This document shows, in pieces, positions 3,001 to 6,000 of a stretch of DNA of 64,000 bases. Numbering within the stretch: the stretch's first letter is position 1; each line of letters starts with the position of its first letter. The position numbers were made by a program. The stretch lies in NCBI RefSeq assembly GCF_017348835.2, contig NZ_CP071375.1; one strand, 5' to 3'. This DNA comes from Escherichia coli. GTDB taxonomy: Bacteria > Pseudomonadota > Gammaproteobacteria > Enterobacterales > Enterobacteriaceae.

Positions 3001-6000
3001 TATTGCATTGCCGTCGCATCGTAGCCCCACATGCCTTCCGGAATCGGGCCGCGCATTTGTTTTCCGTTACCACTCAGAATGCCGTTAACCATACCCTGAT
3101 AATCGGTAGACCAGGAAATGGCCCGCCGCAGATCCGCCTGATTAAGTGGCGCTTTGCTGTTATTCAGATACAGATAGGTGACGCGCAGTGACGGATACTC
3201 TGCCACATTGACTTTATTTTCCTGCTTCAGGGCGTTGAGTTGATCCACCGGCAGCGCATCGGCAATGTCAATGTCGCCACGGGAGAGCTGCAGGCGACGG
3301 GAGGCACTTTCACCGATAATTTTTACCGATACTCGCTTAAAGTTCGGTTTATTGCCGGAGTAATGCGGATTTGGCACCAGAACTAATTGCTGACCTTTTT
3401 GCTAGCTTTTCAGCATAAACGGTCCGGAGCCAGCGGTATTTTGCGCGAGGAAACCACGGGCATCATCCGCCGCATGTTCCTTTAACACCGCCGGATTGAT
3501 AATGGATGCACCGTCATTCGCCAGCGTGTAGAGGAACGGTGCAAATGGCTGGCTAAGGGTAAACTTCACCGTATGTTCGTCGGGAGCATCAATCTTTAAA
3601 TCTTTGGGAAATGCTTCTGCTGGCCCCTGGCCGATTTTTAGTAACCGCTCAAAAGAGAGTTTTACTGCTTCGGCAGTGACAGGTGTGCCATCGGCAAATT
3701 TAGCATTGTCCTTCAGGGTGAACGTCCACTCTTTTTGATCGTCAGACGCTTTCCAGCTACTTGCCAGATCGCCTTCAACGTCGGTTGAGCCTTTATCACC
3801 GTCCGTTATGTACTGAACCAGCCGCTGATAAGACGGGTAGGTCACTGTCCAGTCGTTATTATCTATTGTTACCGCCGGGTCGAGGTTTTGTGGATCGGCG
3901 GCCTTACCAATCACCAGCATATCTTTCGGTACGGCGGCGTGCGCAACCGGGAAAGTTGTGGCAAGGACGAGCGCGAGCAATGTGGGACGAAACGATATCG
4001 ATCTCTTCATGACAGTTTCCTGATTAACTGACGTGCTGTGTGCCAGGGGATATAAAACAGGTGAATTGATCAGCGAGCAGAGGGTAACTCGCTGCCTGGG
4101 GTAATTCGAAGTGCCACCATTCGCTGGAGATACCGACAAAACCGCCACCAGTCATTATCGCATTCAGCAACAGGCGATTGCGCTGAGCGGCGGGCGGGAC
4201 GGAAGGATGGTAAGCATGGGAACGTTCGTGCATTTCATCGAATCCTGCGCCCATATCGAGGATGTTCCCGTGCTCATCACGAAGCGTCAGGTCGATCGCT
4301 GTGCCACGGCTGTGATTAGAACCGACCGTCACATCAACAACATATTGCGGGTCTGGGCAGGCTTGCCACAACATCGCCTGTGCTTGTTGTGGGCGATACG
4401 CATCGTAAATCACCAGTTGTAAGCCTGACAGCTGGGCGATACTGATACTTTTCGCCAGCGCGGTAATCGCATCCTTGTGTAACAGACAACGCGCTTGCTG
4501 GTAAATAGCTTTACCTGTGATGTTATCAGCGCAGGCGTATTTCAATTCGATCTCCAGATCAGGGAAGATCGCGGCTAAATCAACCAGTTCGGTGGTATCC
4601 GACATAAACGGTTCCTGTATAAGACAAAAATTGCTGCGCTTTCCGCTTATGCAGATCTCATGCCATGCCGGGAGAAGCGCCAGAATGCTGGCTTAAAGTT
4701 ATATTTTTTAACTTTTGATCAACATTTGTGCAGCGTAGTGCAGTTTTGGTGCAAGAGGGGAAGTTAAGGAAGGAATCTCCCGGAATCGTAGCTGAAATCA
4801 CAGTATTTAAGTGACAGTGTCACGTTAAATGAAAACCCGCGAGTGCGGGCGAGAGGAATTTGTCAGATTTTCAGCGGTAACACGCTGCTCATCCAGCCTG
4901 GAATTTCTTCGGCGGGTAGGGGGCGGGAAAAGAAATATCCCTGAATAACGCGACAGTGGATCTTACGTAGCATCTCAAATTGCTCTTTGGTTTCGACGCC
5001 TTCCGCCACGACGGTTAAATTGAGGCTTTGCCCAATGCTGGTAATGGCTTCAAGTAAGGCAAGGATGCGTTTTTCCGTCAGACAACGATCGACAAAACTT
5101 TTGTCAATTTTGATTTCCGTTACCGGAAGACTGACTAAGCGGGATAATCCGGAAAAGCCCGTGCCAAAATCATCTACCGATAAACCCACGCCCATATCAC
5201 GCAGGATCTGAATGCGCTTAAAGATTTCGGTATCGTGTTCCATCATCATGCTTTCCGTGATTTCTACCGTCAGCTGGTGGCCGTCAATACCCCAGGCTTG
5301 CATTGCATCAGACACCTGATTAGGCAGTTGATTACTGCGAAAGTGCAGCGCCGACAAGTTAACGGATAACGCCGGGATATGAATATTCTGGCTACGCCAT
5401 TCTGCTAACTGACGGCAAGCTTCCGCGATGACCCAGCGCCCAATATTTTCGATTTCACCAATCTCTTCTGCGAGAGGAATAAACCGTGAAGGGGGCACAT
5501 GACCATGCTGGGGATCGTGCCAGCGAGCAAGGGCTTCGATGCCGTACAGTTCACCCGTTTCTGCGAAGATTTGCGGCTGGTAAACCAGTTTCAGTTGGTT
5601 ATTGCTAATCGCTTCTTTCAGCGCTGCGCCTAAAACCAAACGCTCTTTTACCATTTCGTTCATCGCCGGGCTGAAGAACTGCCAGCCGTTACCGCCATTC
5701 TTGCGAATATAATCCATTGCATTGTGAGCAGTGGAGAGCAGGTAATCGCGGTTTTTACCCACGTCGTAGCTGATGCCAATACTCAAGGTAAGCGGGAAGG
5801 GTTTATCGTCAATCATTATCGGCTTGCTGACCACATTCCGTAGCTCATCGGCGATTTGGGTAATGTTACTGACGTCGTTTTCCAGGCTCACGAGGACAAA
5901 CTGCGTACCTTCGATACGACAGAGATACTGATCCGGTTTGAGTTTTTCACGAAAGCGATTGACCACTTCCAGCAATGCCTGATCGGCCCACGCATAGCCA

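What the first reader, a model, noticed from the sequence alone, without database searches (positions are those of the whole stretch)
4606..4862. sigma54-like promoter with an upstream NtrC-like dyad in front of ddpX
The minus strand carries TGGCAt-N5-cTGCA (4650..4665) with correct GG-N10-GC spacing about 45 bp upstream of ddpX, and an imperfect GTGCAG-N4-GGTGCA dyad sits about 85 bp further upstream (4737..4752). This would fit nitrogen-limitation control of the D-Ala-D-Ala scavenging operon. A separate perfect palindrome gtgaca-g-tgtcac (4811..4823) lies further upstream and is unassigned.
Basis: inference. Interest (0 to 1): 0.4.

Follow-up and report, generated by a model that had tools for sequence, protein, structure and literature searches.

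The report
Known ddpX nitrogen promoter plus matS
The DNA in front of the E. coli D-Ala-D-Ala dipeptidase operon is the already documented nitrogen-starvation (sigma-54/NtrC) promoter, and the "unassigned" palindrome beside it is a known chromosome-organising MatP site (matS13), so the finding is correct but ordinary.

Summary
The window is E. coli chromosome and 4606..4862 is the dosP-ddpX spacer.

1. **Sigma-54 promoter.** The motif aTGGCATGAGATCTGCA (4650..4666, minus) is real. It is the best sigma-54 PWM hit in the 64 kb window and is identical to published sigma-54 ChIP-seq site OS16 (ddpX). NtrC ChIP-seq, NtrC and E-sigma54 gel shifts, and a 104-fold induction on nitrogen depletion attributed by its authors to RpoN and NtrC are all published. 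This part is already known.

2. **"NtrC dyad".** It sits at 4738..4753, one base off the reported coordinates. It is not a true dyad and has 5 of 14 mismatches to TGCACCAnnnTGGTGCA. It is one of two weak NtrC boxes, centred at -106 and -85 and 21 bp apart, inside a 47-bp block (4707..4753). That block is 81% conserved across 10 genera against about 30% in the flanks. Its distance to the promoter changes in 11-bp steps (88, 99, 110). More distant genera carry canonical NtrC dyads at the equivalent place.

3. **Palindrome.** GTGACAGTGTCAC (4811..4823) is matS13, a MatP-binding site of the Ter macrodomain at K-12 coordinate 1,563,282. It is not a ddp operator.

Verdict: correct reading, known biology, low interest.

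The parts
4650..4666 (-). Sigma-54 promoter ddpXp, ATGGCATGAGATCTGCA. The -24 GG is at 4664/4663 and the -12 GC at 4652/4651.
   Evidence: Exact string. Top PWM hit of the window at 15.9 bits. Identical to Bonocora 2015 ChIP-seq site OS16. TGGCA and CTGCA are invariant across 25 aligned promoters from 10 genera.
4606..4639 (-). Predicted transcription start (4639) and 34-nt leader with an AGGA ribosome-binding site before the ddpX ATG.
   Evidence: The TSS is inferred 12 nt downstream of the C of the -12 GC. The same rule is used in PMC4591121, which gives 'distance 34'. The indexing was validated because it returns the glnAp2 NtrC sites at -140 and -108. No mapped TSS was found in the literature held.
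4737..4753 (-). NtrC box 1, TGCACCAAAACTGCACT, centred at -106. Perfect left half-site and poor right half.
   Evidence: 5 of 14 mismatches to the consensus. 7.4 bits on an NtrC PWM, the 99.96th percentile of the window. The left half is nearly invariant across genera. The Lonsdalea homologue TGCACCAACATGGATCG scores 12.9 bits.
4716..4732 (-). NtrC box 2, TGCACAAATGTTGATCA, centred at -85 and 21 bp from box 1.
   Evidence: 4 of 14 mismatches and 7.7 bits. Identical in Citrobacter and Enterobacter. Homologous positions carry canonical dyads, for example TGCACAAATGTTGTGCG in Huaxiibacter (13.7 bits) and TGCCCAATTGTTGTGCA in Serratia (14.2 bits).
4707..4753 (-). Conserved enhancer (UAS) block containing both boxes plus a GTTAA pentamer.
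   Evidence: Identity of 22 non-Escherichia sequences to E. coli is 0.81 here against 0.31-0.36 in the flanks. 0-1 changes in two divergent Escherichia. Distance from box 1 to TGGCA is 87-89, 97-100 or 109-112 bp, with box spacing always 21.
4676..4692 (-). Weak NtrC-like palindrome GCCAGCATTCTGGCGCT centred at -45. Found in Escherichia only. Function untested.
   Evidence: 7.2 bits on the NtrC PWM, the 99.95th percentile. The arms are conserved in the 4 Escherichia sequences. The spacer in other genera is unrelated.
4811..4823 (.). matS13, a MatP-binding site of the Ter macrodomain (GTGACAGTGTCAC).
   Evidence: Perfect match to GTGACRNYGTCAC. The same 13-mer is used as a MatP substrate in vitro. 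The K-12 copy starts at NC_000913.3 position 1,563,282, which is the coordinate listed for matS13 in PMC10945525 supplementary file 1. 0 of 17 changes in divergent Escherichia against 13-25% in the flanks. Retained in B2 strains that lack ddp.
4835..4853 (-). Intrinsic terminator of dosCP: GC-rich hairpin followed by TTTTCATTT.
   Evidence: Terminator scan. RNA fold.
4787..4802 (-). Conserved TGTGA (4802..4798) followed by ACG (4789..4787), upstream of the UAS. Unassigned; possibly a CRP half-site.
   Evidence: TGTGA shows 0.88 identity across genera. ddpX is down-regulated in a cya mutant. The right half is a poor CRP match by inspection.
4024..4605 (-). ddpX coding sequence (D-alanyl-D-alanine dipeptidase), first gene of ddpXABCDF.
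   Evidence: ORF. RefSeq annotation.

Best explanation
The dosP-ddpX spacer holds three independent elements that have all been described before.

1. **ddpXp, an enhancer-dependent sigma-54 promoter.** It comprises the -24/-12 elements at 4650..4666, a predicted start at 4639 and a 34-nt leader.

2. **Its NtrC enhancer.** This is a 47-bp conserved block (4707..4753) with two weak NtrC boxes on the same helical face, centred at -106 and -85. Each box is anchored by a consensus-like left half-site (TGCACCA, TGCACAA).

3. **matS13 (4811..4823).** This is a MatP site that helps organise the replication-terminus macrodomain. It lies next to the promoter by genomic position only.

**Mechanism.** Under nitrogen limitation NtrB phosphorylates NtrC. 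NtrC-P oligomerises cooperatively on the two boxes and reaches the closed E-sigma54 complex by looping about 90 bp of DNA. It then uses ATP hydrolysis to open the promoter. ddpXABCDF is transcribed, D-Ala-D-Ala is imported and split, and D-alanine feeds nitrogen scavenging.

**Shown in the literature:**
- sigma-54 occupancy in vivo;
- NtrC occupancy in nitrogen-starved cells;
- NtrC and E-sigma54 binding in vitro;
- a 104-fold induction of ddpX on nitrogen depletion, which the authors attribute to RpoN and NtrC.

**Shown here:**
- motif quality;
- the conserved footprint;
- helical phasing;
- the matS identity.

**Inferred:**
- the exact start site;
- which bases NtrC contacts;
- that phasing is functionally required.
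For: **Locus and promoter**
- Locus identity.
- The sigma-54 site is identical to ChIP-seq OS16 (FAT 10, predicted TSS 34 nt from ddpX).
- It is the best PWM hit in 64 kb.
- 72 of 80 ddpX loci across Enterobacterales carry a sigma-54 motif of at least 12 bits at the head of the operon.

**NtrC**
- ChIP-seq peak at ddpXABCDF.
- NtrC, E-sigma54 and ternary gel shifts, plus 104.5-fold induction of ddpX on nitrogen depletion, attributed by the authors to RpoN and NtrC. The probe covers the whole spacer.
- RegulonDB lists ddpX as RpoN/NtrC-regulated.

**Enhancer**
- Footprint of 0.81 identity against about 0.3 in the flanks.
- Constant 21-bp box spacing, and 88/99/110-bp distances to the promoter.
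- Homologous promoters in Serratia, Raoultella, Pantoea, Brenneria and Lonsdalea carry canonical NtrC dyads of 12-16.5 bits at -107 to -152.
- The PWM and indexing control recovers the glnA, glnH, nac and astC sites at positions I recall as their published ones.

**matS**
- Consensus.
- Same 13-mer used as a MatP substrate in vitro.
- Coordinate identical to matS13.
Against: - No experimentally mapped start site for ddpXp was found. EcoCyc listed it as 'predicted' in 2015.
- Neither box is a good NtrC site by sequence, at 7.4 and 7.7 bits against 14-22 bits for strong sites. About 25 positions in the window score as well.
- The NtrC contacts have not been footprinted in any paper I could read. 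Zimmer 2000 and Reitzer & Schneider 2001 were not available.
- The published NtrC ChIP peak (80 bp wide) sits over the promoter rather than the UAS if it is in U00096.2 coordinates. This is within ChIP resolution.
- ddpX is also RpoS-dependent in stationary phase and lower in a cya mutant. The sigma-54/NtrC model does not explain either.
Confidence: 0.93

Rival explanations
1. The conserved 47-bp block is not, or not only, an NtrC enhancer. Its near-invariance, including the non-consensus right halves and the ACTACGC spacer, would reflect a second protein or an unusual NtrC binding mode. Candidates for the second protein are another enhancer-binding protein, a bending protein, or an RpiR-type regulator acting through the GTTAA motif. 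The unusual NtrC mode would be binding to same-orientation TGCAC half-sites.
For: - Boxes 1 and 2 score only 7.4 and 7.7 bits, yet the block is conserved base for base across Escherichia, Citrobacter and Enterobacter.
- E. coli has three TGCAC repeats in direct orientation at 11- and 10-bp spacing. Huaxiibacter carries a 10-bp duplication that keeps the phase.
- GTTAA/TTAAC motifs recur around the promoter in genera that carry an RpiR-family first gene.
Against: - NtrC alone shifts the ddpX probe and forms a ternary complex with E-sigma54.
- NtrC ChIP-seq is positive.
- The authors attribute the ddpX induction to both RpoN and NtrC.
- Homologous positions in other genera hold canonical NtrC dyads.
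- The middle TGCAC is TGAAC in most Citrobacter and Enterobacter.
- E. coli lacks the RpiR-family gene.
Confidence: 0.12
2. A second, sigma-54-independent transcriptional input reaches ddpX. It would be either read-through from the RpoS-dependent dosCP operon across the modest terminator at 4835..4853, or an unrecognised sigma-S/sigma-70 promoter. This would account for the reported stationary-phase, RpoS-dependent expression. It is complementary to the main explanation, not exclusive of it.
For: - ddpXA is 39- and 31-fold RpoS-dependent in EDL933.
- dosP ends 257 bp upstream on the same strand. Its terminator has a 6-bp stem and an interrupted T-tract, TTTTCATTT.
- From my own knowledge, not checked here: dosCP is RpoS-dependent, and Lessard et al. 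1998 reported RpoS-dependent ddpX expression.
Against: - No sigma-70-type promoter match in 4500..5000.
- RpoD gSELEX lists only an internal promoter at ddpB/ddpA, not the dosP-ddpX spacer.
- The RpoS effect could be indirect.
- No read-through data were found.
Confidence: 0.3
3. The palindrome at 4811..4823 is a transcription-factor operator or an RNA hairpin acting on ddpX or dosCP, rather than a MatP site.
For: - It lies 58 bp upstream of NtrC box 1.
- As RNA it could form a second hairpin after the dosP terminator (z = -3.6).
- It is invariant within Escherichia.
Against: - It is a perfect matS consensus and sits at the published matS13 coordinate.
- The 64 kb window holds 3 perfect and 1 near-perfect matS sites against 0.34 expected, as expected near dif.
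- It is not conserved next to ddp in other genera, with 0.09 identity.
- It stays with dosP in strains that have lost ddp.
- The outer hairpin stem is broken without compensation in Escherichia sp. E1V33.
Confidence: 0.04
4. The sigma-54-like string is a chance match, or a non-productive sigma-54 binding site of the kind common inside genes.
For: The simple degenerate pattern is expected 0.58 times per 64 kb. Many sigma-54 ChIP sites are not promoters.
Against: - It has the correct orientation and distance to ddpX.
- It is the top PWM hit of the window.
- It is conserved at the head of the operon in 72 of 80 loci.
- ddpX shows 104-fold induction on nitrogen depletion, attributed by the authors to RpoN and NtrC.
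Confidence: 0.01

Closest known systems
ddpXp, the sigma-54/NtrC-dependent promoter of ddpXABCDF as recorded in RegulonDB/EcoCyc (Zimmer et al. 2000; Bonocora et al. 2015 site OS16; Brown et al. 2014; Shimada et al. 2021)
   Same: It is the same element. The 17-mer is identical, the predicted start is the same (34 nt before ddpX), and the spacer is the same apart from one base (C in the window, A in K-12, at window 4673).
   Different: Nothing of substance. This strain's operon carries a ddpA nonsense mutation downstream.
glnAp2, the paradigm NtrC-activated sigma-54 promoter
   Same: - -24/-12 promoter.
- Two NtrC sites about 100 bp upstream on one helical face.
- A weak NtrC-like sequence near -45 in both.
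   Different: - glnAp2 has two near-consensus dyads (20.9 and 19.7 bits) 32 bp apart at -140 and -108.
- ddpXp has two weak, half-site-dominated boxes (7.4 and 7.7 bits) 21 bp apart at -106 and -85.
Weaker Ntr promoters rutAp and astCp2
   Same: Paired NtrC-like sites 20-21 bp apart: rutA at -142 and -121, astC at -253 and -233. All are nitrogen-scavenging operons.
   Different: Their best sites score higher (13-17 bits) and lie further upstream.
matS / MatP system of the Ter macrodomain (Mercier et al. 2008; 28 ChIP-seq sites in Seba et al. 2024)
   Same: The palindrome is a perfect GTGACRNYGTCAC and sits at the coordinate published for matS13.
   Different: None. It simply happens to lie in the ddpX upstream spacer.

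Membership tests
Sigma-54 (RpoN) dependent promoter | GG at -24 and GC at -12 with fixed spacing (TGGCAC-N5-TTGCW) | tested here: met
   TGGCATGAGATCTGCA at 4650..4665. 15.9 bits on a leave-one-out PWM against a training median of 16.1, and the top hit of the window.
Sigma-54 (RpoN) dependent promoter | Oriented toward, and a short distance upstream of, a gene start | tested here: met
   Same strand as ddpX, with the predicted start 34 nt before the ATG.
Sigma-54 (RpoN) dependent promoter | Bound by sigma-54 holoenzyme | not testable with these tools
   Published: ChIP-seq OS16, FAT 10; gSELEX and gel shift.
Sigma-54 (RpoN) dependent promoter | Transcription depends on rpoN and on an enhancer-binding protein | not testable with these tools
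   Published: ddpX mRNA rises 104.5-fold on nitrogen depletion, and the authors conclude that activation requires both RpoN and NtrC.
Sigma-54 (RpoN) dependent promoter | Mapped transcription start about 12 nt downstream of the GC | not tested
   No mapped TSS found. EcoCyc status was 'predicted' in 2015.
Sigma-54 (RpoN) dependent promoter | Conservation of the motif at orthologous operons | tested here: met
   72 of 80 ddpX loci have a motif of at least 12 bits at the head of the operon. TGGCA and CTGCA are invariant in alignment A2.
NtrC (NRI) binding site / Ntr enhancer | 17-bp dyad TGCACCAnnnTGGTGCA | tested here: not met
   The best 17-mers have 4-5 of 14 mismatches, and none has 3 or fewer. 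They score 7.4-7.7 bits against 14-22 bits for strong K-12 sites. Only the left half-sites are consensus-like.
NtrC (NRI) binding site / Ntr enhancer | At least two sites on one helical face, about 80-150 bp upstream, allowing oligomerisation | tested here: met
   Boxes lie at -106 and -85, 21 bp apart in every genus. Distance to the promoter varies in 11-bp steps.
NtrC (NRI) binding site / Ntr enhancer | Homology to bona fide NtrC dyads in orthologous promoters | tested here: met
   Canonical dyads of 12-16.5 bits lie at equivalent positions in Huaxiibacter, Lonsdalea, Brenneria, Serratia, Raoultella and Pantoea.
NtrC (NRI) binding site / Ntr enhancer | NtrC occupancy | not testable with these tools
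   Published ChIP-seq peak and gel shift. The resolution is not at the level of single boxes.
IHF-assisted sigma-54 promoter | IHF core WATCAANNNNTTR between the enhancer and the promoter | tested here: not met
   No match with 1 mismatch or fewer in the K-12 spacer. GATCAAAAGTTAA has 2 mismatches.
matS (MatP-binding site) | 13-bp palindrome GTGACRNYGTCAC | tested here: met
   Perfect match at 4811..4823. Consensus taken from PMC6907758 and PMC3116907.
matS (MatP-binding site) | Located in the Ter macrodomain, where matS sites cluster | tested here: met
   Maps to K-12 1,563,282, inside Ter at 1.2-2 Mb. The window has 3 perfect and 1 near-perfect sites against 0.34 expected.
matS (MatP-binding site) | MatP occupancy in vivo or binding in vitro | not testable with these tools
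   Published: matS13 at 1563282 is in the ChIP-seq-derived list. The same 13-mer binds MatP with Kd ~15 nM.

The most novel reading that the evidence does not exclude
The Escherichia-Citrobacter-Enterobacter version of this enhancer may be an unusual NtrC architecture. Two or three same-orientation TGCAC half-sites sit at helical-repeat spacing. They have been frozen base for base for a long evolutionary time and are phase-locked to the promoter at 88, 99 or 110 bp, with no IHF site. If so, NtrC-P assembles on half-sites alone, or together with an unidentified partner.

In addition, the E. coli lineage has lost the RpiR-family first gene and the inverted-repeat operator that overlaps the start site in other genera. 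That loss would convert a dually controlled operon (substrate plus nitrogen) into a purely Ntr-controlled one.
Probability: 0.15. Interest if true: 0.35.

Novelty: already known. Interest (0 to 1): 0.1.

Why it matters
It matters little as a discovery. The sigma-54/NtrC control of ddpXABCDF and the matS13 site are both in the literature and databases.

The useful outcomes are practical.
- The scan's reader correctly recognised a real sigma-54 promoter from sequence alone.
- The NtrC enhancer can now be delimited to 4707..4753 by phylogenetic footprinting. It has two phased boxes, which I did not find mapped in any paper I could read.
- An apparently mysterious palindrome is removed from the list of unknowns by assigning it to MatP.

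The cross-genus comparison also shows that nitrogen control of this operon is ancient in Enterobacterales, and that E. coli has a derived, simplified operon head.

Tried and rejected
- **Canonical NtrC dyad.** A search with up to 3 mismatches found nothing in the spacer.
- **Sigma-70 promoter.** No match in 4500..5000.
- **Rfam.** A scan of 4300..5200 gave only a meaningless sub-threshold hit.
- **IHF.** No consensus core between the enhancer and the promoter.
- **Palindrome as a CRP site.** Rejected, because GTGA-N5-TCAC has the wrong spacing.
- **Palindrome as a Pho box or LexA box.** Rejected by inspection.
- **Palindrome as an RNA hairpin.** It is possible energetically. However, the outer stem is not maintained in Escherichia sp. 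E1V33, and the matS assignment supersedes this reading.
- **Sigma-54-like 17-mer inside the UAS.** CTTGCACCAAAACTGCA at 4739..4755 scores 12.8 bits and is the fifth-best hit in the window. I rejected it as a promoter because it lacks the GG doublet and because its '-12' GC is lost in most Citrobacter and Enterobacter, where it reads TGAAC.
- **Unavailable sources.** Zimmer 2000 and Reitzer & Schneider 2001 were not held. The stored supplement of Shimada 2021 is cut before the NtrC-site table. The Nolivos 2016 supplement had no matS coordinates.
- **Mapped ddpX start site.** Literature searches found none.
- **Variation within E. coli.** It is too low for footprinting. Almost all genomes that have the promoter are at least 95% identical.
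Full report
**Locus.** The window is E. coli chromosome. Positions 4000..5300 are 100% identical to strain PE164, and RefSeq annotates them as ddpA-ddpX-dosP.
- ddpX is 4024..4605 on the minus strand and dosP is 4863..7286 on the minus strand. The finding therefore covers the whole 257-bp dosP-ddpX spacer.
- The spacer has the same length in K-12 MG1655 and differs at one base. Published K-12 experiments therefore apply directly.
- Within the spacer, the K-12 NC_000913.3 coordinate equals the window coordinate plus 1,558,471.

**Check of the observation.**
- The sigma-54 string TGGCATGAGATCTGCA is exactly at 4650..4665 on the minus strand.
- I built a PWM from the 41 other intergenic sigma-54 ChIP-seq sites in Bonocora et al. 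2015. With it the 17-mer at 4650..4666 is the best hit of the whole window on both strands, at 15.9 bits against a training median of 16.1.
- The 'dyad' GTGCAG-N4-GGTGCA is at 4738..4753, one base off. The palindrome GTGACAGTGTCAC is at 4811..4823 as stated.

**The promoter is already known.**
- Bonocora et al. (PMC4591121) list sigma-54 ChIP-seq site OS16 with the identical 17-mer ATGGCATGAGATCTGCA upstream of ddpX. Its predicted start is 34 nt before the gene, and EcoCyc classed it as 'predicted'. My own indexing gives +1 at window 4639 and the same 34-nt leader.
- Brown et al. (PMC4066584) list an NtrC ChIP-seq peak at ddpXABCDF in nitrogen-starved cells.
- Shimada et al. (PMC8743547) call ddpX a known RpoN/NtrC promoter. 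They show NtrC, E-sigma54 and ternary gel-shift complexes on a probe whose primers span window ~4526..4937. [quoted passage not shown]
- Papers from 2009 and 2011 already cite RegulonDB for RpoN/NtrC control of ddpX.
- I found no experimentally mapped start site.

**The enhancer.** I took eleven K-12 Ntr/sigma-54 promoters as controls.
- Consensus matching, and a PWM built from the eight strongest control sites, return the glnAp2 sites at -140 and -108. They also return the glnH, nac and astC sites at positions I recall as the published ones. This validates the indexing.
- The ddpX spacer has no comparable dyad. A second box, TGCACAAATGTTGATCA (4732..4716, centre -85), has 4 of 14 mismatches and 7.7 bits. 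Strong sites score 14-22 bits.
- On sequence alone the reading would therefore be weak. Comparative evidence makes it strong, as follows.

**Comparative evidence.** A scan of one genome per species for DdpX returned 80 Enterobacterales loci.
- In 72 of them a sigma-54 motif of at least 12 bits sits at the head of the operon.
- In most genera other than Escherichia this motif lies about 55 nt upstream of an extra first gene. That gene encodes an RpiR-family (HTH_6) protein which E. coli lacks.
- I aligned 25 promoter regions from 10 genera. The 47-bp block 4707..4753 is 81% identical to E. coli, against 31-36% in the flanks. The sigma-54 core is invariant.
- The two boxes are always 21 bp apart. 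The distance from box 1 to TGGCA is 87-89 bp in Escherichia, 97-100 bp in Citrobacter and Enterobacter, and 109-112 bp in Mixta, Franconibacter, Brenneria and Lonsdalea. Indels between the enhancer and the promoter therefore come in whole helical turns.
- In more distant genera the equivalent positions carry canonical NtrC dyads. Examples are TGCACAAATGTTGTGCG, TGCACCAACATGGATCG, TGCCCAATTGTTGTGCA and TGCACCTTCATTGTGCA, at 12-16.5 bits. The E. coli boxes are therefore degenerate descendants of real NtrC sites.
- No IHF core lies between the enhancer and the promoter. This fits a short, phase-dependent loop.

**The palindrome.** Symmetry alone is not significant, since 0.39 such palindromes are expected per 257 bp.
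- The 17 bases around it are unchanged in two divergent Escherichia lineages whose flanks differ by 13-25%.
- It is not conserved beside ddp in other genera.
- It stays next to dosP in B2 strains that lack the whole ddp operon.
- A literature search for the sequence showed that GTGACACTGTCAC / GTGACAGTGTCAC is the 13-mer used as matS, the MatP-binding site. It fits the consensus GTGACRNYGTCAC.
- In K-12 the palindrome starts at 1,563,282. Seba et al. 2024 give exactly this coordinate for matS13, one of 28 ChIP-seq-defined sites.
- The window contains three perfect and one single-mismatch matS consensus matches against 0.34 expected. That fits a location in the Ter macrodomain, where matS sites are dense.
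- The palindrome is therefore a chromosome-organisation site and not a ddp operator.

**Other anatomy.**
- The dosCP intrinsic terminator is at 4835..4853.
- A weak NtrC-like palindrome centred at -45 (4676..4692, 7.2 bits) is specific to Escherichia. From memory, it recalls the low-affinity 'governor' sites of glnAp2.
- A TGTGA pentamer at 4798..4802 is conserved across genera, and ddpX is lower in a cya mutant. This is only a lead for CRP.
- ddpX is also RpoS-dependent in stationary phase. No sigma-70-type promoter is detectable. Read-through from dosCP is a plausible but untested second input.

**Verdict.**
- The corrections are the one-base offset, the non-dyad nature of the flagged element, a missed second NtrC box, and the assignment of the palindrome to matS13.
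- Novelty: already known. Interest: low.
- The only mildly new material is the cross-genus footprint with helical phasing, and the apparent loss of an RpiR-type regulator and operator in E. coli.

Noticed in passing
window 42800..42812, 62783..62795 and 56930..56942: Two more perfect matS consensus sites (both GTGACAACGTCAC) and one single-mismatch site (GTGACACCGTCAT). Together with matS13 this makes 4 against 0.34 expected, which places the window in the Ter macrodomain, where matS sites are dense.
   Followed up: partly
window 3402..3404 (ddpA, minus strand): ddpA carries an in-frame stop, W203* (TGG in K-12, TAG here). The substrate-binding protein gene of the operon is therefore a pseudogene in this strain, although the promoter is intact. 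RefSeq flags it 'internal stop' in strain PE164.
   Followed up: yes
window ~4784 and downstream; locus L082 (E. coli Nissle-type, B2): 1,152 of 5,426 complete E. coli genomes, including Nissle and ST131, have no match to the ddp promoter, and the one inspected (Nissle-type) lacks ddpXABCDF. There dosP is followed by osmC, and homology to the window stops at 4784. The terminator, matS13 and the TGTGA element remain, but the NtrC enhancer and promoter are gone. This looks like a deletion rather than an insertion in the other strains.
   Followed up: partly
loci L003-L080, e.g. L014:2134-2988 and the alignment A2 columns just downstream of the -12 element: In Citrobacter, Enterobacter, Serratia, Pantoea, Brenneria and other genera the operon starts with an RpiR-family (HTH_6) regulator gene that is absent from E. 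coli.
- A conserved inverted repeat TTGTTAAT-N4-TAACAG lies immediately after the -12 element.
- GTTAA...TTAAC motifs lie between the enhancer and the promoter.

This is probably a repressor-operator layer that E. coli has lost.
   Followed up: partly
window 4787..4802: TGTGA (4802..4798) followed 8 nt later by ACG is conserved across genera upstream of the enhancer, at 0.88 identity. ddpX is reported as down-regulated in a cya mutant. This could be a CRP half-site, but the right half is poor.
   Followed up: partly
window 4676..4692: A weak NtrC-like palindrome GCCAGCATTCTGGCGCT is centred at -45, just upstream of the -24 element. It occurs only in Escherichia. Its position matches a weak NtrC-like 17-mer at -45 of glnAp2 in my control scan.
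   Followed up: no
window 4739..4755 (minus): NtrC box 1 also scores as the fifth-best sigma-54 PWM hit of the window (CTTGCACCAAAACTGCA, 12.8 bits). It lacks the GG doublet, and the resemblance is not conserved in other genera. It might relate to the multiple E-sigma54 gel-shift bands reported on the ddpX probe.
   Followed up: partly
locus L036 (Huaxiibacter chinensis), ~1940-1980: The enhancer carries a tandem duplication of the 10-bp unit TGCACTACGC. This gives four phased TGCAC repeats while keeping box 2 at the usual distance from the promoter.
   Followed up: no
hit H78 (E. coli strain CAVP880): The match to the ddpX upstream region starts only at query base 66 (window ~4725) and abuts dosC. 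This suggests a deletion that removes dosP, matS13 and NtrC box 1 in this strain.
   Followed up: no
window 4806..4828 (minus strand RNA): The matS palindrome with its AT-rich flanks can fold into a second hairpin directly after the dosP terminator. The combined fold is -18.1 kcal/mol with z = -3.6. This is probably a by-product of the DNA palindrome.
   Followed up: partly
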